IMG/VR virus record: IMGVR_UViG_3300045988_059494
Coordinates: 7,219 to 71,218 of that record
Source of the DNA: a virus
Direction: 5' to 3' (one strand)
DNA: 64,000 bases
In this document: in pieces, positions 9,352 to 62,450 of the stretch
How the letters are laid out: each line of letters opens with the position of its first letter
How positions within the stretch are numbered: the stretch's first letter is position 1
The notes under the pieces: model-generated
What the model was told of the DNA's origin: nothing
Database searches by the model: none
The model's input: the letters and a program-made list of their open reading frames with translations, nothing else
Made by a program: the position numbers and the translations under genes

Positions 9352-9392
9352 CTTTCTATAATAATTATATCATATTTTATAATAAAAAGCAA
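9352..9392 (-). promoter_or_regulatory. conserved AT-rich promoter block upstream of dnaE
   Basis: tctataataattatatcatattttataataaaaag on plus strand = TATAAT-containing motif on the coding strand; member of the repeated family. Confidence 0.4.
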
Positions 9393-9396
9393 TTCA

Positions 9397-10558
9397 TCAA
9401 TCTTTCAACACCAAAGTTAATTTCTGCGCCGCACGAGTACAAGCTGTGTAAAGCCACCGAGCATGATCTGCTTGTCTTAATACTTCCTCGACTACTAATA
9501 CCTTATCATACTCGCTACCTTGGGATTTATGAGTCGTGATACAATAGCCATAGTCAAATTGCTCCGGTCGCAACTGCTTAGGAAACAGTCGAAAGTTTTC
9601 TCGATTTACTGTTGTTTCTTTGGTGGTAATAAGTTTCCAATCCATCAAGAGGTCATGAAATGTCTGATCTCTCTTATCAGCATTATCAATCGTCTCAGGG
9701 GTAAAATCAATTAAACACATAGGATTAAGCCACTTATTTGGGACGGTAGCAATCTTATCAATAGTACCAATAGTGCCATTGACGAGAGCGTCTCCAGTCT
9801 CAGTAATCTTATCCCAGTTGTTTTTAAGACAAATAACTTTATCTCCAACAATAGGATTAGGAATGTCTTCACCATAGCGCATATTGCGGTAATAATTATT
9901 TAATGTATGACGAGTAATATTTTTCCCGCAAAGAATCTGATCTGCCCATGTAAACATACCGTCACACATCTCTCTATGACGCACAATATTGATTTCAGTG
10001 CCTTTATAAGGCTTGATAAGTTTACCTTCTCGAATATCTGCGGACAGACGAATAATCTCGCTTTCTGCAGCCTGGCGCATAATTTCATCGAGGAAGATGT
10101 GCGGACGTTCAAGAATGCCATTTTCTTCGCCAATAGGCGGTAACTGACCGGGATCGCCGCAAGCAATTACATAAATGCCATGCGACAGCAGCAAATTCCA
10201 CATAGGCTTAGGTAGCATAGATACCTCGTCAACTACGATAATATCATAATCAGAAATATTATCTTTAGGGATATGAATAAAGCTGCCATCTGCGCGCGGA
10301 ACAGATTTATACAAGAGTCTATGTGCAGTCATAGCAGTGGGACAACCCTTATTTCTTAGTACCTGTGCAGCTTTGCCGGTATAAGCGATATATCCAACTC
10401 TTTCGGGATCAATATCGAGAGCGGAGATAATAAACTTGATAAGAGTAGATTTACCTGTTCCTGCTTTCAGGCGTAGCCAGCGATCACGGTATAATTTTCG
10501 TTTGCGTGATATCTGGCTACAGCAATTTTCAAACCCTCTTCTTGTTTTTTAGTTAATT
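9397..10558 (-). CDS. RecD/Dda-like superfamily 1 helicase; needs -1 frameshift or ~8 nt hop at GCC TGA just before Walker A
   Basis: ATG at 10556-10558 gives MELTKKQEEGLKIAVARYHANENYTVIAGYA then TGA. The Walker A (AGTGKSTLIKF) and the rest of the helicase (track ORF 9397..10332) are in the -1 frame, with no start codon of their own. Confidence 0.55.
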
Positions 10559-11088
10559 CCATCGGGTTTTACTTCCTCCTTTTCTTTTAAATTTAATTCA
10601 TCTATTGTCCACATATTATCATGCAATTCTTTATGACAATTAGAACATAATAATATACATTTTTTACTTTCTTCAACTGCTTCTTGCAACTTAAAGTGGT
10701 CATTACTTATAGTAAAATCCTTTTGTGATGGGTCTAAATGATGAAATTCTAATGCTTTTAGGCATTTACTATAGCCGCATCTTACACATTGACCTCCGCG
10801 TTGCTATTTTATTTTAGACAGAAAGGCCCCTCTTGTTAGCTAAATTCCTTCTGACATACAGTCATAACAACAACTTCTCTAATTAGCCGCAGCACTTTTA
10901 GGGGTGAAAGTTTTTCCACATATAGGGCATTTTTTTTCTTTCAGACCCGAGGCTCCTGTAATTTTTCTCTCTTGATTACGTTGCTTTCTAGCTTGATACA
11001 TACAAGCATCACTACAATATTTTTTTGTGGATTTTATAGCTTCAAACTCTTTTCCACAAACTGTGCATATATTTGTCATAAAAATCAT
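10549..11088 (-). CDS. HNH homing endonuclease with 3 in-frame TAG codons
   Basis: C-terminal CGYSKCLKALEFHHLDPSQKDF...LLCSNCHKELH (HNH); track ORF 10879..11088 ends at TAG and the frame continues; paralog of 53357..53896 with a TAG at the aligned position. Confidence 0.65.
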
Positions 11089-11123
11089 TCCTTCTATATA
11101 TAGTAACTTATCAGATTCTATAA

Positions 11124-11261
11124 TATATAGAAATATATGTAGATAAATTTACTTGATTTGTCCAAGGGTTTTATCAAACTGCGTACCACTAATTACAGTA
11201 TATGCTTCTCCGTTATGGTATCTATCAACGGCAATCTTGAGTCCTTCCTCTTGTTTACGTG
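11124..11261 (-). pseudogene. diverged duplicate of the helicase N-terminus (46 codons), truncated exactly before the Walker A position
   Basis: MELTRKQEEGLKIAVDRYHNGEAYTVISG... ~75% identical in protein to the 10558 copy but divergent in DNA; flanks the HNH gene. Confidence 0.4.
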
Positions 11262-11464
11262 TTAGTTCCATTTTCCTTCTCCTTAATTGCTGCATCTACT
11301 TTAGCTTTTAAATTATATAAATGCTCCAATCCCACATCATAAAGTAATCTGGTATCCATCGGCAATGTAATCAAATCGCCATTTAGTTCATGTGAGAGTT
11401 GCTTATGTAGTTGTGCCATTTCTGAAATATTCATGCTAGTTAAATCTACATATAAAATATTCAT
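11255..11464 (-). CDS. hypothetical protein (69 aa)
   Basis: ORF track only; overlaps the helicase-fragment copy in another frame. Confidence 0.3.
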   Translation of the reverse strand: MNILYVDLTSMNISEMAQLHKQLSHELNGDLITLPMDTRLLYDVGLEHLYNLKAKVDAAIKEKENGTNT

Positions 11465-11558
11465 ACCGCTTTTCCTTTCAAAAAATAGTAAACCCTATTT
11501 TGGTTTCTGCGGACGACCGTCTAGGTGCCGGGCCAGTCCGCAGTTTCCATCAATCTAT

Positions 11559-14598: not shown

Positions 14599-16143
14599 TT
14601 AATTTTTATTATCCCATGCACTGGGTTCATCGTCTATAATAACCCGCAGATCCTCGATGCCTACCATCTCGTGATGCCAAGTGGTACAGAACTGAGGATG
14701 AATACGACAAGTTCCTAAGTCTGCGGTACACCATAGGAATACTCCTTTATAGGCTCCTCGTCTATTTTTATATACTGACATTTTAATATTTGGTCTTTGA
14801 AGATTTGGATTTGCTTCCAAAATAGGCTCTAGCTTTACCAAGTCTTCCTCTGACACGCCTAACAAAATCATACCTACGTCAATTCTATCTGCGATACTTT
14901 TAGCACCACGCAACAAGTTCTGATCTGGGGTTTCACTATCTTTATAATCACCATTTAGCTGAGTAGCTGACATAATAAAGACACCATACTTATTCGCCAA
15001 ATCTTTTAGTCGAGCAGATAACATAAACAGGATATTATCTTCTCTTAATCGAACTCCGCCACTTCTTCGTGAAATTTCTTCTAGAATTTTTAGCGAGGTC
15101 TGAATATAATCAAACAAGACGTATTTCACATCATGCTCGCGAATATTCTTCTTAATTTTGTTTTCGACATCCTGCAACGAGAAATCCGGCAATTCTTCAA
15201 CCCAAATTGGACTTTCTTGAATAATCTTACCGGCTTCTACTACGCGTTCTCTTTCTCCTTCAAGATACTGACCATTTAAGATATGATCCTCATTAACAGA
15301 AGAAAGAAAAGCTAACATCATAGTTTGAACCTCTTCTTTATCTTGCTCTGTTGCAATAAATAAAGTAGGTTGTGATGCACCATTTTTTATCCAACCAAAT
15401 TGTTCGTGATAAATTCTATTACAAGCGAAGTTACAGGCATCCGCAATTAGACTTCGTGTCTTACCAATACCAGTAGCCGCAGATCGTAAGTAAAACTTCT
15501 TTAATCTTGCACCTCTTGTTACCGTGTTGATAAGTGGTCCATAAAGAGGAATACCGACTTCAGGATGCTCTTCCAAACGCTCGATCAAATCTATAATACC
15601 ATCGCCTGCCTGGTATCCCAAGCCTAAATCATCTTCGATATATTTGCTTTTGATTTCATCAATGCGTTTATCAATAGTAGTAGCTATATCAGTCAATGAA
15701 GTTGCATCAAGCCAATCCTCTTGTCGTTGGCGCTTCTTAGTATCGAGTAGATTATCTGGATCGTAAAGCTCGCTTACATTTACGCCATAACTATCATATG
15801 CTCGCAGCAATGAAAACTTCTTCATTCTGCTATAATAGTAATTGAAAGTATCCTGTCGAGCATTCTGTGATGCTTCTAGAAGATATTCAACGCCTTTATT
15901 CTGCTTAAAAATAGCGTCAAATTTCGGTCGATTCGCAAGATAATCAATAATTGCGTCAATATTCACCTGGCTTCCTGTCTGATGAATATTATACATACTA
16001 CCGAATACAATCTTGTGGAAGTTCTCTACAAAGTCATCTTCGTGGATTATATACTTATCTGTATCATCGAGAATCGCGGCATTATTAAAGACACATCCAA
16101 TGATTTGAGTGATAGCAGCAGTATCAACAAAGCTACTATTCAT
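14599..16143 (-). CDS. replicative DNA helicase (DnaB-like)
   Basis: 514 aa, N-terminal DnaB-type domain, C-terminal RecA-like ATPase (GIGKTRSLIADACNFA, Walker B ILFMLSARL region). Confidence 0.8.
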   Translation of the reverse strand: MNSSFVDTAAITQIIGCVFNNAAILDDTDKYIIHEDDFVENFHKIVFGSMYNIHQTGSQVNIDAIIDYLANRPKFDAIFKQNKGVEYLLEASQNARQDTFNYYYSRMKKFSLLRAYDSYGVNVSELYDPDNLLDTKKRQRQEDWLDATSLTDIATTIDKRIDEIKSKYIEDDLGLGYQAGDGIIDLIERLEEHPEVGIPLYGPLINTVTRGARLKKFYLRSAATGIGKTRSLIADACNFACNRIYHEQFGWIKNGASQPTLFIATEQDKEEVQTMMLAFLSSVNEDHILNGQYLEGERERVVEAGKIIQESPIWVEELPDFSLQDVENKIKKNIREHDVKYVLFDYIQTSLKILEEISRRSGGVRLREDNILFMLSARLKDLANKYGVFIMSATQLNGDYKDSETPDQNLLRGAKSIADRIDVGMILLGVSEEDLVKLEPILEANPNLQRPNIKMSVYKNRRGAYKGVFLWCTADLGTCRIHPQFCTTWHHEMVGIEDLRVIIDDEPSAWDNKN

Positions 16144-16670
16144 GTATCTTCCTCCTGTTCATCTAAGAATGTAAATAATTGCCGCGTATGCTTCATCGGT
16201 TCTCGCTTAGGAGGAACAATGTGAACTTCTCTTACTGGCAAATTATATTTCTGAATTTCTACTCCTTGATTGCGTTGCTTAGCTTCCCATAAAGCTCTCC
16301 AATAATTGAACGCTTCATCATAGACATATGGGATAATACCGATACCACCATTAGCTTTTTCGATCGAGTTTCCTCGTATCTCAAAGAAATACTTCAATGT
16401 CTTTCTCATGCCAGAATAGGTATAATTATTATCCTTTCTAAAGGTCTCCATCTGTTTTCTAATTTTAACAGAGATACTGTTAATTCCAAATAAGCTCTTG
16501 ATATATGTTTCTAATTCTTTCTTATCTTTCTCTTCTTGACTTTGATTTTCTTCTACGCTCTTCGCGCACGATTCATGAGCGTAACGTCTAGGATTTGGTT
16601 TCACAAATGGTTCCATATTAGCGTCAAACATTTTGCCACAATATAAACATTTGACCATATGCTTTGCCAT
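16140..16670 (-). CDS. hypothetical zinc-ribbon protein
   Basis: CLYCGKMF...CAKS motif; 176 aa. Confidence 0.35.
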   Translation of the reverse strand: MAKHMVKCLYCGKMFDANMEPFVKPNPRRYAHESCAKSVEENQSQEEKDKKELETYIKSLFGINSISVKIRKQMETFRKDNNYTYSGMRKTLKYFFEIRGNSIEKANGGIGIIPYVYDEAFNYWRALWEAKQRNQGVEIQKYNLPVREVHIVPPKREPMKHTRQLFTFLDEQEEDT

Positions 16671-16698
16671 AATATTACGCTCCTTTCTTTATTACTTT

Positions 16699-16730
16699 TC
16701 TATATATATTATATCAAATTTATGATAAAA
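16699..16730 (-). promoter_or_regulatory. conserved extended -10 promoter (coding strand TTGATATAATATATATAGAAAAG)
   Basis: TGnTATAAT about 35 nt upstream of the ATG at 16670; family member. Confidence 0.5.
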
Positions 16731-16734
16731 AATC

Positions 16735-16766
16735 AAAGGAGAGTATTATTTATAATACTCTCCTTT
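16735..16766. terminator. perfect-hairpin bidirectional intrinsic terminator
   Basis: AAAGGAGAGTATTAT/ATAATACTCTCCTTT inverted repeat with flanking A and T runs. Confidence 0.6.
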
Positions 16767-16769
16767 ATA

Positions 16770-18791: not shown

Positions 18792-19172
18792 TTAATTCTC
18801 GTTCAAATTGTTTTTATAGCTGTTAATATCAAAGTTCTTACCTTTTTCAGTCAAGCTATAAATGACAGGGTTCTTGCCATACTTATCTACAAATCCATCA
18901 GTTACGAGCTTTCGAATAGCTCCAGAGATCTTACGAGATGAAATAACCATTCCATCTGCAATATCTTTTGCTTTCCAACTTGTGACATCACAGGACTGTA
19001 AGTATTCCAAAATTGCCAGTCCGCTCTCTGTGAACATTGGCTTCTCCATATCTTGCTGCTCACGCAACAGATTATAGACGTCCTGAACCTCGTCAGGAAG
19101 ATTTACTGGCTCCTTACAATTCTGTACGAGCCAATCGAAATATTCAATAAAACTCTTATACTTATTATTCAT
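18792..19172 (-). CDS. winged-helix DNA-binding protein
   Basis: MarR/PadR-like wHTH region (ISSRKISGAIRKLVTDGFVDKYGKNPVIYSLTEKG). Confidence 0.4.
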   Translation of the reverse strand: MNNKYKSFIEYFDWLVQNCKEPVNLPDEVQDVYNLLREQQDMEKPMFTESGLAILEYLQSCDVTSWKAKDIADGMVISSRKISGAIRKLVTDGFVDKYGKNPVIYSLTEKGKNFDINSYKNNLNEN

Positions 19173-19244
19173 TTATTCATTTCCTTTATTTCTTATGTAT
19201 ATATAATACAATAAAAAAGAAGTTATGTCAATTAGCGCTATCCA

Positions 19245-19883: not shown

Positions 19884-20188
19884 TATTATTCTCCCACTGT
19901 ATTAGAATAGCCTACGACGTTAAAATTGCTAGCTAACCAACAATCTAAATCATCTACAACGGCGACGCATCTCTTGCCTCTAAAGTTATCTATATAGTAT
20001 GAATAGCTAATAAATCCCAAGTTTGATGGAAGCGGCCCCACTTCTGTGATAAATCGTTTTACCTGAGAAGAAGGAGCATTACCAACAAATAAAATTTGCT
20101 TATCGGGATTTTCTTTAGCAAGCTAATTAGCATATCGCATTAAGGTAGCTGTTTTACCAGCTCCTCTATTTGTAATTACCTTAAACAT
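19865..20188 (-). CDS. P-loop NTPase, hypothetical; in-frame TAG at codon 22
   Basis: GGAGG SD, MFKVITNRGAGKTATLMRYAN-TAG-LAKENPDKQILFVGNAP...; no ORF in track because of the TAG. Confidence 0.45.
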
Positions 20189-21433: not shown

Positions 21434-21634
21434 TTATTTATTTTTCGATGCTATCATTGCATCAATTTCCAGTAAAGCATTTATCCCGTCCGGTAGAGCC
21501 ATAATTTGATTAGTAAGAGATATGATTCTAGCTTCAGCACGAGATTTTGCTTCTTTCGAAGCATTTTCATCTTGGTGAATAAGTTCGCATTTGTAGATTT
21601 CGTCCGCAAACTTCTTCATCTGTTTTCGGGTCAT
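21434..21634 (-). CDS. hypothetical protein (66 aa)
   Basis: ORF track. Confidence 0.3.
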   Translation of the reverse strand: MTRKQMKKFADEIYKCELIHQDENASKEAKSRAEARIISLTNQIMALPDGINALLEIDAMIASKNK

Positions 21635-21705
21635 ATAATCTGTCCTTTAACTTTTCTATTGCTTCCTGATTACATTATATATTATATCAGAAAATATTTT
21701 TTAAG

Positions 21706-22854
21706 TCAACAAAAAATTTCTGATATTACGCAATCTTTCGCATCCTTATCATCTCTCTTACACTTGAAAACAGGATGCCGCAGAGTGTGTTCTTTCTTGT
21801 CAACTTGCATACAATCAAGAGCTACAACCGTACCAAGCCATAATTCGGGATGTTCAGTCATCTCTCTTTTATTGTCATCAGTTAATCCAGAGCTAACTGT
21901 ACCTAAGTCAATAAGTTCACCTTTATCATTGTATGCGCCAATTCTAATTGCGGTTTTCCAGCCAAGAAAATAAGGTTTGGTTACTGGTCTATAAATATGA
22001 GGATTATGAACATAATCTTCATAATACTGACCTTCGCTTAATAGCCAAGTATATTCATCATCTTGGTTTTGCTCACCGCGCTCTTCCCAATAAGGCCAGG
22101 TTTCTAGCTCCTTACCAGTATATTCTTTAGTAGCATCGCAAAAACCCGTACAAATTAGGTCAATAGAATCCATCTGTTTAACTTTAATAGTAGACCAAGC
22201 GGGTCTTTTACCAGGACTATATGGATAGTCTTTCTTCTTTAAGACTACGCCCTCACCGCCAGATTTTAAGATACGAGAGATTTCAGCTTCCATATCTTCG
22301 TCAACACGAGTAGCAAGTCTCAAGAAACTATACTGGTTGAGATTATGTTTCTTCCAGATTGCTGCAAGAATTTTATAGCGCAAATCCGCAGGTGAGTTAA
22401 TAAGGTTGACACTATCATATGCAATAATGTCATGCACATAGTAATGAATTGGAGCGTCTTTCTGTCTCTTGATAGCAAGAGTTGGAAGACAACCCATAAT
22501 ACTTACAGTATCTTTCGATGTACCACCGGGAACATAAATTTCTCCAATGAGAATTGTTCCCGCGGGAAGGCAGTTCAATGCTTCTTTTAGGTGAGGTACA
22601 TTGTCACTTTTTTCTGTAAGAATACCAGATACTTTACTTACCGTGCGACCAAAAAGATAACAATGATTTTCGGTTTTTACAAACTGATAAAAGGCTCCGT
22701 CGATCTTCTCTTCAAGAAAATATTCTCCATTAGAGCATACTTCAGAAAGCATAGATTCCTTGCCTGCTGGGAGCTTCCAAATAAGCATCGGCTCAATCAT
22801 TAGCTCCTCTGCTTCGGGATACAACTCATGTATCTTTTCTTTATCAAAACTCAT
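21706..22854 (-). CDS. ATP-dependent DNA ligase
   Basis: KxDG adenylation motif (EEKIDGAFYQ), 382 aa. Confidence 0.8.
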   Translation of the reverse strand: MSFDKEKIHELYPEAEELMIEPMLIWKLPAGKESMLSEVCSNGEYFLEEKIDGAFYQFVKTENHCYLFGRTVSKVSGILTEKSDNVPHLKEALNCLPAGTILIGEIYVPGGTSKDTVSIMGCLPTLAIKRQKDAPIHYYVHDIIAYDSVNLINSPADLRYKILAAIWKKHNLNQYSFLRLATRVDEDMEAEISRILKSGGEGVVLKKKDYPYSPGKRPAWSTIKVKQMDSIDLICTGFCDATKEYTGKELETWPYWEERGEQNQDDEYTWLLSEGQYYEDYVHNPHIYRPVTKPYFLGWKTAIRIGAYNDKGELIDLGTVSSGLTDDNKREMTEHPELWLGTVVALDCMQVDKKEHTLRHPVFKCKRDDKDAKDCVISEIFC

Positions 22855-22947
22855 TTATTGTTATTACCCTTTCTTTTATATAAATATAATATAATAATTA
22901 AAAAGAAAAGTCAATAAAAGAAAGAATGGCGTAGCCATTCTTTCTTA

Positions 22948-27730: not shown

Positions 27731-27830
27731 AGCGAATACCTCAAATACTTCATTTATTTTTAAGTTCTCCTTTTCCTTTTCTGTATATATAATATCATAT
27801 TTTTTATAAAAAATCAAATTAAAAACAAAT

Positions 27831-27864
27831 AAAAGCTCGATAGACGAAAGTCTATCGAGCTTTT
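27831..27864. terminator. hairpin terminator
   Basis: AAAAGCTCGATAGAC...GTCTATCGAGCTTTT. Confidence 0.55.
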
Positions 27865-27910
27865 ATTATTAGATCGTTGAATCTTCATCAGAAGGGTATG
27901 TCATCTACTA

Positions 27911-30592: not shown

Positions 30593-31102
30593 TTAATTAT
30601 CGTTGGCCTTACGTCTAAAACGCTTTACAGATTCAATCGCTTTATCTTGACCAATAATATATTTATTTAACATATCTTCCTCTTTATCAAGAGCTGATTT
30701 AATCGCGGAAAGGCGAGATTCAATACGCGCAATATTGTGGTGGAAGGCGTTAGAGGGGTCAACTTCCGCAGAAGTTTTAGCACCGAAACCTAATACCTCT
30801 TGATAGAATTGCTCGCGGGCATTGAGCTTATTTTCCTCTTTCTCATAAGAGTATTTAAGAGCTTGAATTCTTGCTTTTGATAGGGCGATGTTGTAGCCTA
30901 CTTTTTTAGAATAAAAACCTTCATCTTGCTTGCTTAAAATAGCTGTACCATAAAAATTTTTTCCATTATAATTGATTATTACAAAAGTTATGCCTTGTTC
31001 TTCGCAATATTCTTTTACAACTACAGGAGCTTTATATATAGATTTAATTAGTTTCATTATTTGATTCTCCTTATCTATCTCTTTATCTATATAATAGCAC
31101 AT
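30593..31102 (-). CDS. hypothetical protein; N-terminal domain paralogous to 55243..55575
   Basis: Shared pattern V..V....G.A.........F....G..IAL.KA between the two ORFs. Confidence 0.3.
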   Translation of the reverse strand: MCYYIDKEIDKENQIMKLIKSIYKAPVVVKEYCEEQGITFVIINYNGKNFYGTAILSKQDEGFYSKKVGYNIALSKARIQALKYSYEKEENKLNAREQFYQEVLGFGAKTSAEVDPSNAFHHNIARIESRLSAIKSALDKEEDMLNKYIIGQDKAIESVKRFRRKANDN

Positions 31103-31196
31103 TTTTATAGATAAATCAAATTTGGCCTAATTACTAAAAAAAATTGCTGGGCCTATGCGCACGGAAACTCGGAGCCTGACGACGCTGGCGATAAAA

Positions 31197-34605: not shown

Positions 34606-34642
34606 TCACTTTCTATATATATTATAATATATATTTATAAAA
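34606..34642 (-). promoter_or_regulatory. conserved AT-rich promoter block
   Basis: ctttctatatatattataatatatatttataaaaaaa (plus); family member. Confidence 0.45.
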
Positions 34643-34644
34643 AA

Positions 34645-34674
34645 ATCAAAGGTTCTATTTCTAGAACCTTTGAT
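34645..34674. terminator. hairpin terminator
   Basis: ATCAAAGGTTCTA/TAGAACCTTTGAT. Confidence 0.55.
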
Positions 34675-34680
34675 TTTTAT

Positions 34681-37565: not shown

Positions 37566-37612
37566 TCATTCTTCTTTATTTTATGTATATATAATAACAT
37601 ATATTTTATAAA
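37566..37612 (-). promoter_or_regulatory. conserved extended -10 promoter block
   Basis: Coding strand TTTATAAAATATATGTTATTATATATACATAAAATAAAG. Confidence 0.45.
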
Positions 37613-37616
37613 AAAT

Positions 37617-37640
37617 AAAGGGAGCTTAAAGCTCCCTTAA
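37617..37640. terminator. hairpin terminator
   Basis: GGGAGCtttaaGCTCCC. Confidence 0.5.
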
Positions 37641-41874: not shown

Positions 41875-41898
41875 AGGGAAAACTCCTTTCCTTATTCT

Positions 41899-41935
41899 TT
41901 ATGTATATATTATATCATAATTATTTATAAAAATA
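41899..41935 (-). promoter_or_regulatory. conserved extended -10 promoter (coding strand TTATGATATAATATATACATAAAGAA)
   Basis: TGaTATAAT 37 nt upstream of ATG 41874, with SD AAGGAAAGGAG between. Confidence 0.55.
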
Positions 41936-41937
41936 AA

Positions 41938-41961
41938 AGAGAGCCTTTGAACAAGGCTCTC
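41938..41961. terminator. hairpin terminator
   Basis: AGAGCCTTtgaacAAGGCTCT. Confidence 0.5.
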
Positions 41962-45756: not shown

Positions 45757-45795
45757 ACTTTCTATATATATTATATAATAAATATATAATATTTT
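45757..45795. promoter_or_regulatory. conserved AT-rich promoter block (possibly serving the plus-strand islet)
   Basis: ttctatatatattatataataaatatataatatttt. Confidence 0.35.
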
Positions 45796-45889
45796 CAAAT
45801 TACTCTTATTGTTTGGTCAAAAGCTGATATACTTCTATTATCATTTTTTAGATAACAATAGAGAAAATAATGAAAGGGGCAGATTGTCT

Positions 45890-49288: not shown

Positions 49289-49326
49289 AAATTCATTTAC
49301 CCTCTTTCTTTACTTTCTATATATAT

Positions 49327-49350
49327 TATATGATATTTTTATAATAAAAT
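49327..49350 (-). promoter_or_regulatory. conserved promoter block
   Basis: Coding strand TATCATATAATATATATAGAAAG. Confidence 0.4.
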
Positions 49351-49351
49351 A

Positions 49352-49380
49352 AAGGAGAGCTATTAATCTAGCTCTCCTTT
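49352..49380. terminator. hairpin terminator
   Basis: AAAGGAGAGCTAttaatcTAGCTCTCCTTT. Confidence 0.6.
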
Positions 49381-49384
49381 ACCA

Positions 49385-50934: not shown

Positions 50935-51706
50935 GATCTGTAATCCATTCTCTGTTGATAATATAAGTATCTTTTTCCTTTAAGCAAGTTTTAATCTGTT
51001 CTAATGAGACTGGTCTACCATATCCACAAGAGAAATCTTCTTCCATACTAGGGCAAGTCTCTAGATACTTAAAACCAATACGCCTAAACATACTGGGGTG
51101 AACCATAGGGAAACAAATCTTTTGCAGACTAAAGCGTTCATTGAAATTTTTGATATTTACAGTAGGAAAAATTATCTGTCTACCTTTGACAGAAGGAATA
51201 AATCCTATCGAGAGCTTGGTCTGAATTCCAGCAAGTTCAATAAGGTTAATAGCAGATACAAGAGCTGCGCCCGCACTTTCTAGCTCTTCCGCTTCTACCA
51301 TAGCCGCGCCACCAGTGGCATAGATAATAGAAATAGTTTTCTTCTTTCTATTGATTTTCTCTACTGAAATCATAGACTTCGGCAAGCCCATTAGCGCATT
51401 TGGTACATTAGGCACGAAACCTACAACCTGATTAGTTGCAATCGGCTTAGGAATAAGATTATACATCTTACTAACTAACTTTTTGTTCTTTATCAGATTA
51501 CTCTTGATATTCTTAACTGGATCATTATATCCATAAATCAAGAGAGATTCAGCTTCCTCATAAGTATTTGTACCGCTCCAATTCGAGTTACCAGTCGTTT
51601 GAGAACTATGTTCATCTCTCATAAACTTATTGTTTGGTCGTTCTTTAAGCGTGTTCATAAGCTCAAAAATGCTGCTAAATTCTTCTTTATACATATTATA
51701 AGACAC
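50888..51706 (-). CDS. hypothetical protein (272 aa) between the AAA+ and vWA genes
   Basis: ORF track. Confidence 0.3.
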   Translation of the reverse strand: MSYNMYKEEFSSIFELMNTLKERPNNKFMRDEHSSQTTGNSNWSGTNTYEEAESLLIYGYNDPVKNIKSNLIKNKKLVSKMYNLIPKPIATNQVVGFVPNVPNALMGLPKSMISVEKINRKKKTISIIYATGGAAMVEAEELESAGAALVSAINLIELAGIQTKLSIGFIPSVKGRQIIFPTVNIKNFNERFSLQKICFPMVHPSMFRRIGFKYLETCPSMEEDFSCGYGRPVSLEQIKTCLKEKDTYIINREWITDHGNNIEEILKYMEVC

Positions 51707-51738
51707 TCTTATAAACTTCCTTTCCTATTTCCTTATGT

Positions 51739-51775
51739 ATATATTATATAATAATTATTTATTATTTTCAAATAG
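51739..51775 (-). promoter_or_regulatory. conserved promoter block
   Basis: Coding strand AATAATTATTATATAATATATACATAAGGAA. Confidence 0.45.
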
Positions 51776-51780: not shown

Positions 51781-51816
51781 AAAAAACGAGGAAATATTTC
51801 TATTTCCTCGTTTATA
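51781..51816. terminator. hairpin terminator
   Basis: ACGAGGAAATAtttcTATTTCCTCGT. Confidence 0.55.
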
Positions 51817-54436: not shown

Positions 54437-54560
54437 ATAGGAGAAGAGAATTATCGCAAGAAGAAGCGAACATTATTCTTCTTTTGATAATCCATCTCAG
54501 CCTGATAAACGCCCTTGAAGAAGTGTCTTACCTTATTCAGCATTATTAAATCCCTCACTT

Positions 54561-54596
54561 TCTATAAATATTATATCATAATATTTATTTTATTGC
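54561..54596 (-). promoter_or_regulatory. palindromic promoter variant TATAAATATTATATCATAATATTTAT upstream of the tRNA-Leu/Cys unit
   Basis: Near-perfect 26-bp palindrome containing TGATATAAT on the coding strand; near-identical copies at 61326 and 62419. Confidence 0.5.
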
Positions 54597-54640
54597 AAAT
54601 TTTTCATTTATTGCTTTCATTGTAAATAATCCAGGACTGC

Positions 54641-55242: not shown

Positions 55243-55575
55243 TTATGTAGTTTCAAGGAACTCTTGTTCAGCTTCCATAACTTCACGCAGTTCATGCGCA
55301 GCCTTATTCTCATAATCAGCCATATCAGAATAATGAGCAACCGCATCATCATAAATGCGTCTAGCCTCAAGTTTCTTCGCCGTTGCGCGCTTCATACGCT
55401 TGCGGGCAATCTTTTCCGCACACCGCAGAGCAGCAATCTGCTTACCCTTCTCCAGTGAAAACTCGTCATCTGCATGGCATACTGCAACGCCTCGCACTAC
55501 TCTGCCTGCGTAGGTGGAAACCGCAATTACACGAGAACCATTGGTATAAAACTTGTACTTCTCAATCGGATACAT
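55243..55575 (-). CDS. hypothetical protein; paralog of the N-terminal domain of 30593..31102
   Basis: ORF track; shared motif. Confidence 0.3.
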   Translation of the reverse strand: MYPIEKYKFYTNGSRVIAVSTYAGRVVRGVAVCHADDEFSLEKGKQIAALRCAEKIARKRMKRATAKKLEARRIYDDAVAHYSDMADYENKAAHELREVMEAEQEFLETT

Positions 55576-55726
55576 AACTTGTAACTCCTTTTCTCATTTA
55601 CTATATATATTATATAATAAAATTTCATATATGTCAAAGATCATCTAAGCTAGCTTAGTATCGACCCTTATCATATTTCCTTTTGTTTATATACATATAA
55701 TACAATAATTTTTGAGAAAAATAAAA

Positions 55727-55758
55727 AATAGGATAAAGCCTAATGGCTTTATCCTATT
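55727..55758. terminator. hairpin terminator
   Basis: AATAGGATAAAGCCtaatGGCTTTATCCTATT. Confidence 0.55.
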
Positions 55759-56265: not shown

Positions 56266-57486
56266 TTACTTAACAGTAACTTCCTTAGAGGTAACTACTA
56301 CGTCGTCAACATCAAGTTCAACAGCACCGCCGGTAAACTTGGTCTTGTCAGTATCTACGCCAGCCTTATCGTAAGATACGCCGGTAACAACCTGAGTCTT
56401 AGTGCCTGCGAAAGTAGCATTAACATCGACTTCATTACCAGCAAAGGTAGCTGCAAATTTATCGCCAGTAAATACTGGAGCTGTAGCAGTAGCGCTAGTA
56501 ATACCAGTTACAACATCGGTTGCAGTTTCAGCGAGTTCTGGAAGAGCACCTGCATCAAATGCACCTTCTGTGTAAGAAGCCTTTGCACCCTGAACGAAAG
56601 TAGGAAGTGCGTTCGCAGTAAAGCTAAAACTTAAAGTCTCAGTGGTATCATCAACGTTAGCGCTCCAAGTAGCCTGAGAACCTTGAGTAAAAGTATCATC
56701 GCCGTTGGTAACAAAAGTATCCTTAGCCTTAGACGGCAGAGAACCAACAGAAGTTACCTTTTTAATGCTATCCTTAGCTGGGGTTACGGTTACGTTTGGT
56801 GCAGACACAGAACCGGAAATTTGAACACCGTTTTCAGCATCCTTAGCAATACTAACAGTACCAGCAGCAGTTGTAGTACCGGTTACAGTACCTGCTGGAG
56901 TATAATCACTCTTGGTTAGAGTAGCATCAGTTGCGGTCTGAGTAAGACCAACCTCAATAGAACCTGCGGCATTACCCTTAGCCTTCAGACCGATAATAAT
57001 CTGGCCAGCTACGGTACCAGTAGCGGAATCCTTCTTAGATAGAGCACCAAGACCCATATCCGCAGCAAGGGTATCAAGGTTAATATTAGCAGACAGATTC
57101 TGAGTACCAATGGTAACAGTCTTTAAAGCATAAATGCTCTCATCGCCAAGCTCATGCCATGTAGCCGGCTCACCGCCATATACATACTCCTTAACACCAA
57201 TGATGATTACATCACCAGCAACCGGATTGGTAATGTCAGCAAAAGCACTAACAACACCACGGAAGTGCATAGAACCTGCAATACCGGCAATAGCGGCCTG
57301 AACCTGAGCGCCAGTTACAAGACCTTGCTCCTTAGCACTAACGCCAGCCGCAACGTCCTTCTTAGCAGCATTACCAAGAGTAGCAAGAAGCTCACGAGCC
57401 TCAGCATCCTTTAGATAATAAGTCTGATCTCCAATAGTTAGTTTGGAAACAACAGGAACATTCTTAGGATCAAAAATAGCAGCCAT
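56266..57486 (-). CDS. tail fibre / structural protein (Gly-Ala-Thr-Val rich)
   Basis: 406 aa, low-complexity beta-rich composition; N-terminal KLTIGDQTYYLKDAEARELLATL motif; SD AGGAGG. Confidence 0.5.
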   Translation of the reverse strand: MAAIFDPKNVPVVSKLTIGDQTYYLKDAEARELLATLGNAAKKDVAAGVSAKEQGLVTGAQVQAAIAGIAGSMHFRGVVSAFADITNPVAGDVIIIGVKEYVYGGEPATWHELGDESIYALKTVTIGTQNLSANINLDTLAADMGLGALSKKDSATGTVAGQIIIGLKAKGNAAGSIEVGLTQTATDATLTKSDYTPAGTVTGTTTAAGTVSIAKDAENGVQISGSVSAPNVTVTPAKDSIKKVTSVGSLPSKAKDTFVTNGDDTFTQGSQATWSANVDDTTETLSFSFTANALPTFVQGAKASYTEGAFDAGALPELAETATDVVTGITSATATAPVFTGDKFAATFAGNEVDVNATFAGTKTQVVTGVSYDKAGVDTDKTKFTGGAVELDVDDVVVTSKEVTVK

Positions 57487-59552: not shown

Positions 59553-59626
59553 TGGTGCGGGGCCGCGGATTCGAACCGCTTTTTCAGCCTTTTAACGCTG
59601 ATGGTCTACTTATAGCCTAGCCCCGC
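59553..59626 (-). tRNA. atypical tRNA-like gene with an apparent 8-nt anticodon loop (GUUAAAAG); anticodon unresolved (UAA, AAA or quadruplet)
   Basis: Acceptor GCGGGGC/GCCCCGC, T-loop GGTTCGAATCC, A73, CCA; anticodon stem UCAGC/GCUGA encloses 8 nt; weak D-stem. Confidence 0.4.
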
Positions 59627-60927: not shown

Positions 60928-61042
60928 TGGTTGGAAGCACAGGATTCGAACCTGTATCTCGCGTCCCATACGATAAAATTGCTGTTACAGCCTATTACTA
61001 GGCTAAATCTTACGCGCGTGCTGTCTCTTACACTAACTTCCA
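60928..61042 (-). tRNA. tRNA-like gene with ~40-nt insertion in the anticodon-loop region (possible intron-containing tRNA or pseudo-tRNA)
   Basis: Canonical T-arm ACAGGTTCGAATCCTGT, acceptor TGGAAGT/GCTTCCA, A73, CCA, D-arm GTG..CAC. The putative anticodon stem CGCGT/ACGCG encloses 47 nt that include a hairpin AGCCTAgtaaTAGGCT. Confidence 0.3.
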
Positions 61043-61120: not shown

Positions 61121-61322
61121 TATTTACAAGACGCTAACGGGCATAACCAATTCCTTTTCGTCCTTTTGTCGGTTCCCCATATGCTCACTGTCCAAAAGAA
61201 CTAGGTTTCTTAAGACCGTGGTCTTAAAACCATAAATATCTCTTATATTTATTCAAATTAGTAGCACAAAAGTTTGCTGATATAGCGTCTTAATCCACGA
61301 TTTGTGGTTGACCTTGCCGGCC

Positions 61323-61360
61323 TATATAAATATTATATCATAATATTTATTATTTTTCAA
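61323..61360 (-). promoter_or_regulatory. palindromic promoter variant upstream of the tRNA unit
   Basis: cctatataaatattatatcataatatttattattttt; near-identical to the 54561 and 62419 copies. Confidence 0.5.
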
Positions 61361-61599
61361 ATCAAGACCCACGGAAACTCAAGCTAATTACTCCATATCT
61401 CCCACTTGTTTCCGTCTTAAAGAGATATATCATAGTCTGGAGGTAATACACTTACCAATAAACATTCTTGTATTCAAGTAAATAGAAGAATTTGCTGTAT
61501 GGGTCTTTTCCATAACATAGGAAAGGAGTGATACATAACCCCATTTAATGGGGAAGTGGCCGTAACTATAAGGGATAACCTTATCTAAGCTCTGGCAAG

Positions 61600-62223
61600 T
61601 TACGAGGTTTCACCGTATTTCCATTTGTATCCATAAGCAGTTTTTCGTTTGCCATTGCATACAGCAGCTATATGCCCTGAATGTTGTTTGCCCAAACGAT
61701 CATAAGCAGCTTTAATTGAAGGGAAAATATTCAAAATTTGATTGGTATTTTTATCTATCTGTATAACAGGCTTAATAATACCTAAACGACTTTTAATACT
61801 TCGCTCTTCTTTGGAAATACCATATTGATTTAACACCTTTGAACAAGTGTCCGTAGAATAATTCAAAATTTTTGCAACTTCTTTAATATTTAATCCTTCT
61901 TTATATAAAGAATATATTAAATCATAGTCACAATATCTCTTTCCATCGCCGCCAAGGGTTGCATTATATCCATTCTTGAAAGAACGTTTTTGTTCAATCC
62001 AATAAACTTCTCGTTCTTCTGGATTATCCGTTTCTTCAATTAGCTCAATATGGAAATGTTCAACCCCATATTTCCGCATAGCAGAATATAATGGACGCTT
62101 TTCGTTACGCTCTTTGAAAGCATCTCGACAATGTTCCTTAAAGCGTTTCTCGATAGAGAATTCAGTTTTACCGACATAAATTTTACCATTTATGTCATTA
62201 GTGATCTAATAGATGTATGCCAT
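61600..62223 (-). CDS. GIY-YIG homing endonuclease with in-frame TAG at codon 6
   Basis: SD AAAGGAG; MAYIY-TAG-ITNDINGKIYVGKTEFSIEKRFKEHCRDA...RKYGVEHFHIELIEE...YWIEQKRSFKNGYNATLGG; track ORF 61600..62079 is the post-TAG part from an internal Met. Confidence 0.65.
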
Positions 62224-62306
62224 AACTAAATGACTCCTTTCTTTTTATTTTGATATAATTAGCATTACCCGTCTTTTACCGCGTGGAGGTTTATATCACA
62301 AAAGAC

Positions 62307-62378
62307 TCGGAGTGACAGGATTCGAACCTGCGACCTCGATACCCCAAATATCGCCGTCTACCGCTGACTTACACCCCG
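62307..62378 (-). tRNA. tRNA-Pro(UGG), CCA not encoded
   Basis: Acceptor CGGGGTG/CACTCCG (one G-U), anticodon stem CGATA/TATCG with loop UUUGGGG, T-loop GGTTCGAATCC. Confidence 0.55.
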
Positions 62379-62418
62379 TTATAAAGACACATATTGTAAT
62401 ATGTGTCTTTCCTTATCT

Positions 62419-62450
62419 TGTATAAATATTATATCATAATATTTATACAA
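62419..62450 (-). promoter_or_regulatory. palindromic promoter variant upstream of tRNA-Pro
   Basis: tataaatattatatcataatatttatacaaaat. Confidence 0.5.

What the first reader, a model, noticed from the sequence alone, without database searches (positions are those of the whole stretch)
9352..62450. A family of at least 16 near-identical AT-rich promoter blocks with an embedded extended -10 (TGnTATAAT), including a 26-bp palindromic variant at tRNA operons
Intergenic regions repeatedly contain the block (coding strand) TTTATAAA-N-ATTATGATATAATATATACATAAAGAA, placed 30-40 nt upstream of start codons and immediately after a perfect hairpin terminator belonging to the upstream gene. Copies occur at ~9355, 16700, 19194, 21671, 22877, 27784, 34608, 37566, 41899, 45757, 49327, 51739, 55606, 55686 and elsewhere. 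The -10 is canonical sigma-A type with an upstream TG but no recognisable TTGACA. Three copies (54561, 61323, 62419; TATAAATATTATATCATAATATTTAT) are almost perfect palindromes and sit upstream of tRNA clusters, suggesting either bidirectional promoters or an overlapping operator for a phage regulator.
Basis: seen in the sequence. Interest (0 to 1): 0.5.

Follow-up and report, generated by a model that had tools for sequence, protein, structure and literature searches.

The report
Phage sigma-A promoter family with terminators
The repeated AT-rich blocks are 18 ordinary but very strong housekeeping-type bacterial promoters, many fused to the terminator of the gene before them, that drive the DNA-replication, nucleotide-metabolism and tRNA genes of an uncultured gut phage which reads the TAG stop codon as an amino acid.

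Summary
A position weight matrix finds 18 copies, all on the minus (coding) strand and all intergenic, with no intermediate-scoring sites; simulated sequence gives about 0.01. They are similar, not near-identical: 68% mean pairwise identity over 41 nt.

Aligned on the -10, 14 of 18 copies have TTGnnn at exactly 17 bp. Every conserved part maps to a known Firmicutes sigma-A promoter element: TRTGn, TATAAT, an AT-rich discriminator, a pyrimidine-purine start 7 bp after the -10, and a purine-rich leader. In nine copies the -35 overlaps or abuts the upstream terminator hairpin.

The promoters keep their positions in relatives down to 54% PolIII identity. The hexamers are conserved while the flanks are not. 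No copies occur in at least 19 kb of adjacent TAG-recoded DNA.

The 26-bp palindrome is real (arms of 11, 3 bp between). It occurs only in this phage family and only in front of tRNA units. In relatives it lies 88-115 nt upstream of the amber-suppressor tRNA. Bidirectional transcription is not supported. An operator role is neither shown nor excluded.

Verdict: new members of a known kind, of low to moderate interest.

The parts
62416..62456 (-). Promoter, tRNA class, with the palindromic 26-mer. TTGATT-17-TATAAT with TATGA. tRNA-Pro starts 55 nt after the -10.
61320..61360 (-). Promoter, tRNA class, with the palindromic 26-mer. TTGAAA-17-TATAAT. tRNA-Gln lies 218 nt downstream.
55685..55725 (-). 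Promoter TTTATT-17-TATTAT, upstream member of a tandem pair. It directly follows hairpin 55758-55727.
55597..55637 (-). Promoter TTGACA-17-TATAAT (12/12 consensus) in front of the 110-aa gene 55243-55575.
54558..54598 (-). Promoter, tRNA class, with the palindromic 26-mer. TTGCAA-17-TATAAT. A short ORF follows, then tRNA-Leu(CAA) and tRNA-Cys.
51731..51771 (-). Promoter TTGAAA-17-TATAAT in front of the DUF7192 gene 50888-51706.
49313..49353 (-). Promoter TTTATT-17-TATAAT in front of the RNase_T-like exonuclease 48485-49288. The -35 lies in the T-tract of hairpin 49383-49348.
45758..45798 (-). Promoter TTGAAA-17-TATAAT in front of the 51-aa ORF 45588-45743. It lies in a divergent intergenic region.
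41897..41937 (-). Promoter TTTATT-17-TATAAT with TATGA, in front of the isochorismatase-family gene 41362-41874.
37579..37619 (-). Promoter TTTATT-17-TATTAT with TATGT. The next long gene is 36572-37480 (metallophosphatase).
34609..34649 (-). Promoter TTGATT-17-TATAAT. The -35 lies inside the 3' arm of hairpin 34678-34641.
31079..31119 (-). Promoter TTGATT-17-TATTAT with TGTGC. In front of gene 30593-31057.
27777..27817 (-). Promoter TTGATT-17-TATTAT with TATGA, in front of the RNase H gene.
22874..22914 (-). Promoter TTGACT-17-TATTAT in front of the ATP-dependent DNA ligase 21706-22854.
21669..21709 (-). Promoter TTGACT-17-TATAAT with TG (11/12 consensus) in front of the 66-aa ORF 21434-21634. 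It is the weakest match to the family matrix (19 bits leave-one-out).
19191..19231 (-). Promoter TTGACA-17-TATTAT in front of the 126-aa winged-helix protein 18792-19172.
16696..16736 (-). Promoter TTGATT-17-TATAAT with TG in front of gene 16140-16670. The -35 overlaps the end of hairpin 16767-16734.
9352..9392 (-). Promoter TTGCTT-17-TATAAT with TATGA in front of DNA polymerase III alpha (6821-9334). Its position is conserved in relatives down to 54% protein identity.
27828..27867 (-). Intrinsic-terminator hairpin (18 pairs) ending 10 nt before the -35 of promoter 27794.
16734..16767 (-). Terminator hairpin (15 pairs) overlapping the -35 of promoter 16713.
22918..22946 (-). Terminator hairpin (13 pairs) ending 3 nt before the -35 of promoter 22891.
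34641..34678 (-). Terminator hairpin (17 pairs) whose 3' arm contains the -35 of promoter 34626.
37618..37638 (-). Terminator hairpin (9 pairs) overlapping the -35 of promoter 37596.
41939..41961 (-). Terminator hairpin (9 pairs) ending 1 nt before the -35 of promoter 41914.
49348..49383 (-). Terminator hairpin (15 pairs) overlapping the -35 of promoter 49330.
51784..51813 (-). Terminator hairpin (13 pairs) ending 12 nt before the -35 of promoter 51748.
55727..55758 (-). Terminator hairpin (14 pairs) ending 1 nt before the -35 of promoter 55702.

Best explanation
The blocks are a family of 18 strong promoters of the housekeeping (sigma-A / sigma-70) type, read by the host RNA polymerase holoenzyme.

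Each copy consists of a -35 hexamer TTGAnn, a 17-bp spacer that is 92% A+T, the Gram-positive -16 element (TRTGn or TGn), and a -10 TATAAT or TATTAT. After the -10 come an all-A/T discriminator, a pyrimidine-purine start site 7 bp downstream (predicted +1 = A), and a purine-rich, unstructured leader of about 16-50 nt. The leader runs into a strong Shine-Dalgarno sequence or into a tRNA.

In half of the copies the T-tract or 3' arm of the preceding gene's intrinsic terminator doubles as the -35 region. Each intergenic spacer therefore ends one transcript and starts the next. This cuts the replication, nucleotide, NAD and tRNA region into about 18 short, independently driven units.

The family is confined to this standard-code, presumably early/middle part of the genome. 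It is absent from the adjacent TAG-recoded part.

A sub-class drives the tRNA units. It has discriminator ATTTATA, usually inside an exact 26-bp palindrome. In relatives this sub-class also drives the amber-suppressor tRNA.

What is shown: motif anatomy, strand, position, statistics and evolutionary footprint. What is inferred: recognition by host sigma-A, the start site, the strength and the timing.
For: Statistics. There are 18 discrete sites, all on the coding strand and all intergenic. No intermediate scores occur, and simulated sequence gives 0.01 sites.

Anatomy.
- TTG at -35 in 14/18; the spacer is 17 bp in all.
- The -10 matches 6/6 in 12 copies and 5/6 in 6.
- TGn in 10 copies, TRTGn in 8.
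- Y-1/R+1 at 7 bp in 17/18.
- Leader purine content is 82% against a 53% background.
- The independent generic sigma-70 scan ranks these same sites at the top with 17-bp spacers.

Anchoring. The conserved downstream block is fixed relative to the -10, not to the start codon. The distance from the -10 to the start codon varies from 28 to 64 nt.

Evolutionary footprint.
- The PolIII promoter is at the same place in relatives with 99, 94, 80, 73, 58 and 54% PolIII identity. TTG, the 17-bp spacer, TRTGn-TATAAT and the AT-rich discriminator are kept while flanks are unalignable.
- In 15 orthologous pairs the -35 hexamer is 6/6 identical in 11, and the core is about 80% identical. The upstream flank is about 40% identical.

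Distribution. No copy occurs on either strand in at least 19 kb beyond the last promoter in six relatives. That region carries genes with in-frame TAG.

Match to published Firmicutes promoter architecture. The following elements are described in PMC12641261:
- TRTG.
- An AT-rich discriminator in Terrabacteria.
- YRR/YRY start elements 7-8 bp after the -10.
- An AG-rich initial transcribed region.
The B. subtilis rrn P1 design (17-bp spacer, extended -10, A/T-rich discriminator) is described in PMC3113569.

Host context. There are strong GGAGG-type ribosome binding sites. An endolysin-like amidase carries an SLH domain. Whole-phage contigs are binned with Oscillospiraceae and Eubacterium MAGs. 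The nearest cultured PolIII homologues are from Enterococcus and Bacillus phages.

No sigma-factor domain was found in the 30 window proteins scanned.
Against: - There is no transcript-level evidence of any kind. The start site, the strength and the timing are inferred.
- Four copies have only TTTATT at -35, and one of them (49330) also lacks TG.
- The host is unknown, so its sigma-A specificity is assumed from the phylum.
- Only about 85 kb of a genome of about 145 kb was inspected. A phage sigma factor, or more copies, could lie in the remainder.
- Conservation of spacer and leader beyond what sigma-A needs could reflect an additional factor or gene conversion.
Confidence: 0.85

Rival explanations
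1. The 26-bp palindrome of the tRNA-class promoters is also an operator. A dimeric phage or host DNA-binding protein would bind across the -16/-10/discriminator region. This would gate transcription of the tRNA units, including the amber-suppressor tRNA in relatives, and so would time the switch to TAG read-through. A candidate binder is the MarR-like winged-helix protein 18792-19172. This reading adds to the promoter explanation; it does not replace it.
For: - The dyad is perfect (11-3-11), whereas generic family members do not fold.
- Complementarity of 11/11 is found only in the tRNA-promoter class. That is 7 unique cores across relatives; 6 have a tRNA within 300 nt and the seventh is an ortholog of the 54575 site. 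The mean is 8.67 for tRNA-proximal promoters against 6.11 for the others.
- In IMG/VR the exact 26-mer exists only in this phage family, in 18 stretches on 11 contigs. In 9 contigs it lies 88-115 nt upstream of tRNA(CUA).
- A search by the tRNA body, blind to the promoter, gives 10 family contigs. Nine carry the exact 26-mer and one carries 25/26.
- The identical block ends where the dyad ends, while the -35 hexamers (TTGATT, TTGAAA, TTGCAA) and the leaders differ.
- The 126-aa protein has weak winged-helix/MarR matches, E = 2e-4.
Against: - Orthologs of promoters 62433 and 61337 in the relatives at about 80% nucleotide identity keep -35, TG, -10 and discriminator. They have only 9/11 and 7/11 arm complementarity.
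- Perfect conservation is seen in 2 of 4 tRNA-class orthologous pairs against 1 of 12 ordinary pairs. That difference is not significant.
- The copies are paralogs and orthologs of one sequence, so they are not independent observations. Short-patch gene conversion would give the same picture.
- Part of the symmetry is automatic: TAT of TRTG mirrors ATA of TATAAT.
- Shuffling left arms among promoters gives the same mean complementarity, 6.51 observed against 6.47.
Confidence: 0.15
2. The terminator-promoter blocks also act as recombination junctions, like the PeSL cassettes of T4-type phages. Homologous exchange between the similar copies would move or replace the genes between them, each arriving with ready-made transcription signals.
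For: - Against the relatives at about 80% identity, homology ends 0-22 nt downstream of the predicted start site at 6 promoters: 34626, 37596, 45775, 51748, 61337 and 62433. That is 7 of 39 distinct downstream-facing breakpoints. About 0.25 would be expected for random placement, and about 3 if all breakpoints were intergenic. Only one or two breakpoints lie at the upstream edge of a promoter.
- Promoters 62433 and 61337 share 26 identical bp. They flank a segment that is replaced in relatives.
- The design is the same as that described in PMC2839356 and PMC4122927.
Against: - The enrichment over an intergenic-only null is only about 2.4-fold.
- BLAST alignments naturally stop at the end of a conserved promoter when the next gene is divergent.
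- The replaced segment between 62433 and 61337 contains a GIY-YIG homing endonuclease gene, which explains its mobility on its own.
- Many copies precede conserved core genes (PolIII, ligase, RNase H) rather than orphan genes.
- No chimeric promoter or mini-circle was demonstrated.
Confidence: 0.25
3. The blocks are promoters for a phage-encoded sigma factor or a phage-modified polymerase (middle-class promoters) that merely resemble the host consensus.
For: - Conservation extends beyond the sigma-A contact positions into the spacer, discriminator and leader.
- Large Firmicutes phages such as SPO1 are known to encode their own sigma factors (established knowledge).
- Only part of the genome was seen.
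Against: - Every conserved position coincides with a described sigma-A promoter element of Firmicutes.
- TTGACA-17-TATAAT is met at 12/12 in copy 55614.
- No sigma domain was found in the 30 window proteins scanned.
- Known phage sigma factors recognise sequences unlike TTGACA/TATAAT (established knowledge for SPO1 gp28 and gp33/34 and for T4 gp55).
Confidence: 0.05
4. The palindromic copies are bidirectional promoters that also fire on the plus strand.
For: The mirror strand reads TATATCATAAT, a 5/6 match to the -10.
Against: - The mirror strand has no TG and no TTG hexamer at 16-18 bp. The core matrix gives at most 21 bits at one site and nothing at the other two.
- The only credible plus-strand genes in 64 kb are 45891-46422. 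They are not near any palindromic copy, and they have their own TTGGTC-17-TATTAT promoter.
Confidence: 0.03

Closest known systems
Housekeeping sigma-A promoters of Firmicutes with the -16 (TRTGn, extended -10) element, as in B. subtilis Pveg and rrn P1
   Same: - -35 TTGAnn, a 17-bp spacer, TRTGn and TATAAT.
- An A/T-rich discriminator, a Y-1/R+1 start 7-8 bp after the -10, and a purine-rich initial transcribed region.
- All are described for Firmicutes in PMC12641261 and PMC3113569, which cites Voskuil & Chambliss 1998 and Helmann 1995.
   Different: - The copies are encoded by a phage and are more alike than unrelated host promoters: 68% pairwise identity over 41 nt.
- The -35 is often only TTGATT or TTTATT and is merged with a terminator T-tract.
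- Function has not been tested.
PeSL (promoter-early stem-loop) cassettes of T4-type phages (Arbiol et al. 2010, PMC2839356; Comeau et al. 2014, PMC4122927)
   Same: - A repeated intergenic composite of a terminator stem-loop and a strong host-type early promoter, with a Shine-Dalgarno sequence and start codon at the 3' end.
- Copies sit at borders between conserved and variable DNA.
   Different: - The phage lineage is unrelated and the host is Gram-positive.
- The hairpin lies upstream of and overlapping the -35, and only half of the copies have one.
- Many copies precede core replication genes rather than orphan genes in hyperplastic regions.
- Recombination between copies is only suggested here, not demonstrated.
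Families of near-consensus early promoters in large lytic phages (T5 early promoters; SPO1 host-takeover module; T7 A1-A3). Cited from established knowledge, not re-examined here.
   Same: Many strong host-polymerase promoters share sequence beyond the two hexamers. They are often paired with terminators and drive short early operons.
   Different: - There is no sequence relationship to those phages.
- Here the family also drives the replication genes and the tRNA operons of a phage that uses genetic code 15.
Palindromic operators overlapping the -10 of phage or bacterial promoters, such as MarR-type or repressor operators
   Same: A perfect 11-3-11 dyad is centred on the 5' edge of the -10. 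It is restricted to one functional class of promoters (the tRNA units).
   Different: - No binding protein has been identified.
- The symmetry is lost in two orthologous promoters.
- Part of the symmetry follows automatically from TRTG plus TATAAT.

Membership tests
Sigma-A / sigma-70 housekeeping promoter (Firmicutes type) | -35 hexamer resembling TTGACA | tested here: met
   TTG in 14/18 copies and at least 4/6 matches in 13/18. The other four are TTTATT, and three of those have TGn. The hexamer is 6/6 conserved in 11/15 orthologous pairs.
Sigma-A / sigma-70 housekeeping promoter (Firmicutes type) | Spacer of 17 +/- 1 bp between the hexamers | tested here: met
   The spacer is 17 bp in all 18 copies when aligned on the -10. 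The generic scan reports the same spacing.
Sigma-A / sigma-70 housekeeping promoter (Firmicutes type) | -10 hexamer TATAAT with invariant A2 and T6 | tested here: met
   TATAAT in 12 copies and TATTAT in 6. Positions 1, 2, 3, 5 and 6 are invariant.
Sigma-A / sigma-70 housekeeping promoter (Firmicutes type) | Extended -10 / -16 element (TGn, TRTGn) | tested here: met
   TGn in 10/18 and TRTGn in 8/18. T at -5 and at -3 relative to the hexamer is invariant. The element is optional in this family of promoters.
Sigma-A / sigma-70 housekeeping promoter (Firmicutes type) | AT-rich discriminator, Y-1/R+1 start element 7-8 bp after the -10, and AG-rich initial transcribed region (PMC12641261) | tested here: met
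   The discriminator is at least 5/6 A/T in all copies. Y-R at 7 bp occurs in 17/18. Leader purine content is 82%.
Sigma-A / sigma-70 housekeeping promoter (Firmicutes type) | Location upstream of, and co-oriented with, a gene or RNA | tested here: met
   18/18 copies are on the coding strand and in intergenic DNA. The -10 lies 28-64 nt before a start codon preceded by a Shine-Dalgarno sequence, or 55-218 nt before a tRNA. One copy (37596) lies about 116 nt before the next long gene.
Sigma-A / sigma-70 housekeeping promoter (Firmicutes type) | Transcription initiation by sigma-A holoenzyme at the predicted +1 | not testable with these tools
   This needs 5'-end mapping or in vitro transcription.
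PeSL-type composite terminator-promoter cassette | Repeated intergenic motif containing a host-consensus early promoter | tested here: met
PeSL-type composite terminator-promoter cassette | Stable stem-loop (terminator or attenuator) as part of the motif | tested here: inconclusive
   9 of 18 copies have a hairpin of 9-18 pairs that ends between 8 nt inside and 12 nt before the -35. The other 9 have none.
PeSL-type composite terminator-promoter cassette | Preferential association with orphan genes in hyperplastic regions | tested here: not met
   Many copies precede conserved replication and repair genes: PolIII, ligase, RNase H, exonuclease. Positions are conserved across distant relatives.
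PeSL-type composite terminator-promoter cassette | Recombination between copies that creates insertions, deletions or replacements | tested here: inconclusive
   Homology breakpoints lie 0-22 nt past the predicted start at 6 promoters. Trivial explanations and a homing endonuclease are not excluded.
Operator (binding site of a dimeric regulator) | Dyad symmetry | tested here: met
   11-3-11 perfect inverted repeat in three window copies.
Operator (binding site of a dimeric regulator) | Both arms conserved in orthologs beyond what the promoter needs | tested here: inconclusive
   Identity is 26/26 at the 54575 site and at the suppressor-tRNA site, but 23/26 and 21/26 at the other two, with symmetry lost. 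One of 12 ordinary promoters is also 26/26.
Operator (binding site of a dimeric regulator) | A cognate DNA-binding protein | not tested
   The only candidate is the 126-aa protein 18792-19172, with a weak winged-helix/MarR match.
Bidirectional promoter | Adequate -35/-10 on the opposite strand and a divergent gene | tested here: not met

The most novel reading that the evidence does not exclude
The exact 26-bp palindrome that forms the core of the tRNA-operon promoters is a regulated switch, not only a promoter. In relatives it is the promoter core of the amber-suppressor tRNA(CUA). The switch would be either an operator for a phage or host repressor, or a supercoiling-sensitive cruciform. The cruciform idea has no test behind it; it rests only on the phage carrying its own gyrase genes (22948-27224). 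Such a switch would set when the suppressor tRNA accumulates. That in turn would set when TAG-containing late genes become translatable in this code-15 phage. It would supply the missing transcriptional trigger of the genetic-code switch. The two recoding papers read here do not analyse native promoters.
Probability: 0.15. Interest if true: 0.7.

Novelty: new member of a known kind. Interest (0 to 1): 0.3.

Why it matters
As promoters, the blocks are textbook. They show that this uncultured gut phage of about 145 kb relies on its host's housekeeping polymerase for replication, NAD-salvage, tRNA-repair and tRNA genes. They also give a ready-made consensus for annotating transcription units in its many relatives.

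The useful by-product concerns the genetic code. The phage reads TAG as an amino acid. The promoter family marks the standard-code part of the genome, and its palindromic sub-class drives the tRNA operons. In relatives that includes the suppressor tRNA.

This makes one open question testable: what controls the timing of suppressor-tRNA expression in recoded phages. The test needs only one defined 26-bp element and a short list of candidate binding proteins.

Tried and rejected
- Nucleotide similarity to cultured phages: megablast found nothing, and sensitive blastn found only trivial 46-68-nt matches. The phage has no close sequenced isolate.
- Rfam at gathering threshold: only tRNAs in the window. 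The blocks are not a known RNA element.
- Chance AT-rich low complexity: rejected by the bimodal score distribution, strict strand bias, simulations and AT-rich controls.
- A translation or leader-RNA role for the conserved ATATATAGAAAG: rejected because it is fixed relative to the -10, not to the start codon.
- A T4-late-type TATAAATA promoter: that octamer appears only on the antisense strand of the palindromic copies, and the host context is Firmicutes. Set aside without a direct test.
- A phage sigma factor in the window: no Sigma70 domain in the 30 proteins scanned. This search was not exhaustive.
- Bidirectional promoters: rejected.
- Covariation between the palindrome arms across all family promoters: none. 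Shuffled left arms give the same mean complementarity.
- A look-up of the 87-aa ORF at the window's right end found no record, so DNA beyond that end of the window itself was not retrieved by that route. Loci of relatives (L155, L164, L215) do cover the corresponding region.
- Two attempts to use a TAG-containing ORF as a query failed on its in-frame stops. Those failures are how the recoding was confirmed.

Full report
**What the window is.** Nearly all genes run on the minus strand.
- Encoded functions include DNA polymerase III alpha, DnaB, RecJ, GyrA/GyrB, anaerobic ribonucleotide reductase, PhoH and NAMPT.
- Further functions are ATP-dependent DNA ligase, RNase H, an RNase_T-like exonuclease and a nicotinamidase-like protein.
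- NAD synthase, Thg1, an RNA ligase, a kinase and an amidase with an SLH domain are also present.
- There are 12 tRNA genes.
- No cultured phage is similar at the nucleotide level. The nearest PolIII homologues, at 40% identity, are in Enterococcus and Bacillus phages.
- IMG/VR holds many relatives on contigs of up to 148 kb. Their PolIII identity is 99, 94, 80, 73, 58-60 and 54%.
- Two whole-phage contigs are binned with Oscillospiraceae and Eubacterium MAGs. Together with the GGAGG ribosome sites, this points to a Clostridia host.

**Checking the observation.** Shorter cores recur, and every listed coordinate holds a copy on the minus strand.
- An iterated weight matrix converges on 18 minus-strand sites. 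These are the 17 listed plus one at 31096.
- With a 42-column matrix all 18 score above 25 bits. Nothing else on that strand exceeds 15. The plus strand has one site above 20, the mirror image of a palindromic copy.
- Leave-one-out scores are 19-48 bits. First-order Markov simulations give 0.01 sites above 20 per window.
- Mean pairwise identity over 41 nt is 68%, against 29-35% for flanks and AT-rich controls.

The family is real and discrete, but "near-identical" overstates it.

**Anatomy.** The copies were aligned on the -10.
- T, T, G and A are nearly invariant at 23 to 20 nt upstream of the hexamer. This is a -35 hexamer at exactly 17 bp. It reads TTGACA, TTGACT, TTGAAA, TTGATT, TTGCAA or TTGCTT in 14 copies and TTTATT in 4.
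- The generic sigma-70 scan independently lists the same sites among its best, with 17-bp spacers. One copy (55614) matches 12/12. The statement that no -35 is recognisable is therefore wrong.
- The spacer is 92% A+T. T-A-T precedes the G of TGn, which is the TRTGn -16 element typical of Gram-positive promoters. TGn is present in 10 copies and TRTGn in 8.
- The -10 is TATAAT in 12 copies and TATTAT in 6.
- Downstream, ATATAT-A-(G/C/T)-AAAG is fixed relative to the -10. Its distance to the start codon varies (28-64 nt), so it belongs to initiation rather than translation.
- That block reads as an A/T discriminator, a pyrimidine-purine start element 7 bp after the -10 (17/18 copies), and an 82%-purine initial transcribed region.

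Each of these elements is described for Firmicutes promoters in PMC12641261. The B. subtilis rrn P1 design (17-bp spacer, extended -10, A/T-rich discriminator) is in PMC3113569.

**Link to terminators.** Nine copies directly follow a hairpin of 9-18 pairs. The -35 lies between 8 nt inside the 3' arm and 12 nt after the stem. The terminator T-tract therefore doubles as the -35 or the upstream spacer. The other nine copies have no such hairpin.

**Evolutionary footprint.**
- The promoter in front of PolIII is at the same place in all relatives examined, including those at 54-60% protein identity. TTG, the spacing, TRTGn-TATAAT and the AT-rich discriminator persist while the flanks cannot be aligned.
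- In 15 orthologous comparisons with the lineage at about 80% nucleotide identity, the -35 hexamer is unchanged in 11. The 26-nt core is about 80% identical, and the 40 nt upstream about 40%.
- All copies in relatives are again on the coding strand.

**Distribution.** Beyond the low-coordinate end of the window there is one more copy. After it there are none on either strand for at least 19 kb in six relatives.
- That region has genes on both strands with in-frame TAG at conserved glutamine positions. Examples are a resolvase-like gene and a Big_3 protein.
- In the window, TAG ends only 1 of 57 long ORFs.
- Relatives carry a tRNA with anticodon CUA.

The phage therefore uses code 15, and the promoter family marks its standard-code replication and tRNA region. 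The recoding preprint 10.1101/2021.08.26.457843 reports alternative code in the late structural and lysis genes of such phages and variable use in the replication genes, in line with an early or middle class for this family. Neither that preprint nor the theta-ribozyme paper PMC10879173 analyses native promoters.

**The palindromic variant.** ATAAATATTAT-GAT-ATAATATTTAT(A) is exact at three sites. It folds as a perfect DNA hairpin, unlike generic members. The three copies share only this block and TTTG of the -35 region. All precede tRNA-containing units.
- Across the family, 11/11 arm complementarity is confined to tRNA-class promoters. The mean is 8.67 for tRNA-proximal promoters against 6.11 for the others.
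- In IMG/VR the exact 26-mer occurs only in this phage family, in 18 stretches on 11 contigs.
- In nine contigs it lies 88-115 nt upstream of tRNA(CUA). Elsewhere it lies before tRNA-Leu(CAA)/Cys, tRNA-Pro or an ORF-tRNA unit.
- A search seeded on the suppressor tRNA body found 12 contigs. Nine have the exact 26-mer, one has 25/26, and two distant phages have none.

Arguments against a required symmetry:
- Orthologs of 62433 and 61337 in the 80% lineage keep all promoter elements, but arm complementarity drops to 9/11 and 7/11.
- One ordinary promoter is also 26/26 conserved.
- Shuffling left arms does not lower the mean complementarity.
- All tRNA-class promoters share the discriminator ATTTATA rather than ATATATA. 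If transcription starts at the G 8 bp after the -10, that difference falls at -5. A T at -5 is the position reported to confer sensitivity to the initiating-NTP concentration on B. subtilis rrnB P1. This is a speculation, not a result.

Bidirectional firing is not supported. The mirror strand lacks TG and a -35. The only credible plus-strand genes, 45891-46422, are elsewhere and have their own promoter and terminator.

**Recombination junctions.** Against the 80% lineage, homology ends 0-22 nt after the predicted start at six promoters. That is 7 of 39 downstream-facing breakpoints. Only one or two breakpoints lie at a promoter's upstream edge. This resembles PeSL cassettes. The enrichment over an intergenic null is modest, however, and one of the variable segments carries a homing endonuclease.

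**Conclusion.** The blocks are host-type sigma-A promoters, many of them fused to terminators, in an uncultured TAG-recoding Clostridia phage. They are new members of a well-known kind. The one lead worth an experiment is whether the invariant palindromic core of the tRNA and suppressor-tRNA promoters is also a regulatory site.

Noticed in passing
window 4267-9334 (insert 5641-6824): DNA polymerase III alpha is split. The N-terminal part is 6821-9334 (837 aa) and the C-terminal HHH_6 part is 4267-5673. A 1.18-kb insert separates them and is absent from the closest relative. The insert carries a GIY-YIG-type ORF (5798-6643) that is readable only if TAG is sense. In three other relatives PolIII is one 1296-aa ORF.
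   Followed up: partly
window-wide; for example 20188-21099, 61600-62223, 43750-44499, 10549-11088, and 46165-46422 on the plus strand: TAG appears to be read as a sense codon (genetic code 15). TAG terminates 1 of 57 long ORFs. ORF 20188-21099 has 13 in-frame TAGs. The GIY-YIG gene starting near 62223 reads MAYIY*ITNDINGKIYVGKT. A resolvase-like gene in relatives has TAG at the conserved glutamine of RVSSRDQNLDRQ.
   Followed up: partly
window 62236-62306 (-): There is a full-length but sub-threshold match to the HDV-like ribozyme of F. prausnitzii (25.3 bits, E = 0.26). It starts exactly one base after the 3' end of tRNA-Pro. This is the arrangement described for theta ribozymes that process tRNA 3' trailers in recoded gut phages.
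   Followed up: partly
L164 2614-2672; L159 2290-2633; L164 4047-4391: Relatives carry a twister-P1-like match (40 bits, E = 3.5e-6) just upstream of tRNA-Ser. They also carry a phage-encoded tmRNA (99.8 bits) inside the tRNA array.
   Followed up: no
L215 7798-8010; L164 1341-1555, and equivalents in other relatives: The amber-suppressor tRNA(CUA) has a long variable arm. It is preceded by a leader of about 90-115 nt whose ends pair (AAAGACAC...GTGTCTT). The same hairpin motif lies between promoter 62433 and tRNA-Pro in the window, at 62383-62410.
   Followed up: no
window 45813-46465 (+): This is the only credible plus-strand unit in the window. It has two small genes, 45891-46153 and 46165-46422; the second has an in-frame TAG. 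It has its own TTGGTC-17-TATTAT promoter (45813-45841) and terminator (46427-46455). It is divergent from promoter 45775 and is better conserved in relatives (83%) than its neighbours.
   Followed up: partly
window 59553-59626 (-) and about 60930-61040 (-): A tRNA-like gene is called with a four-base anticodon (taaa) and only 31 bits in Rfam; it is conserved in relatives. Downstream of tRNA-Gln there is a stretch ending in GGTTCGAATCCTGTGCTTCCAACCA. It looks like the 3' half of a tRNA, but no tRNA was called there.
   Followed up: no
L184 6330-7600 (= L177 15200-16460), outside the window: The opposite-strand module holds Peptidase_M78-like and resolvase-like genes. Its intergenic regions carry direct and inverted repeats of TTTGGCAAA, for example AAATTTGGCAAAGTTGTTAAATCAGCTTTGCCAAATTT. 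These look like operators and are unrelated to the promoter family.
   Followed up: no
L161-L163 (contigs of 155-214 kb): Three larger viral contigs encode a 78-79% identical homologue of the 406-aa protein 56266-57486. They have no copy of the promoter motif in 21 kb. The gene is therefore shared with phages that use different promoters.
   Followed up: no
window 33407-43784: There is a dense set of auxiliary genes.
- NAD salvage: NAMPT, NAD synthase, a PRPP-synthetase-like protein and a nicotinamidase-like protein.
- tRNA repair or modification: Thg1, RNA ligase, an AAA_33 kinase and metallophosphatases.
This fits a phage that counters tRNA- and NAD-targeting defences.
   Followed up: no
L155 12194 (ortholog of window promoter 54575): In the closest relative the discriminator of this tRNA-class promoter has a 5-nt deletion (TATAATATGAAAGTG instead of TATAATATTTATAGAAAGTG). 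This destroys the right arm of the palindrome and shifts the predicted start.
   Followed up: no
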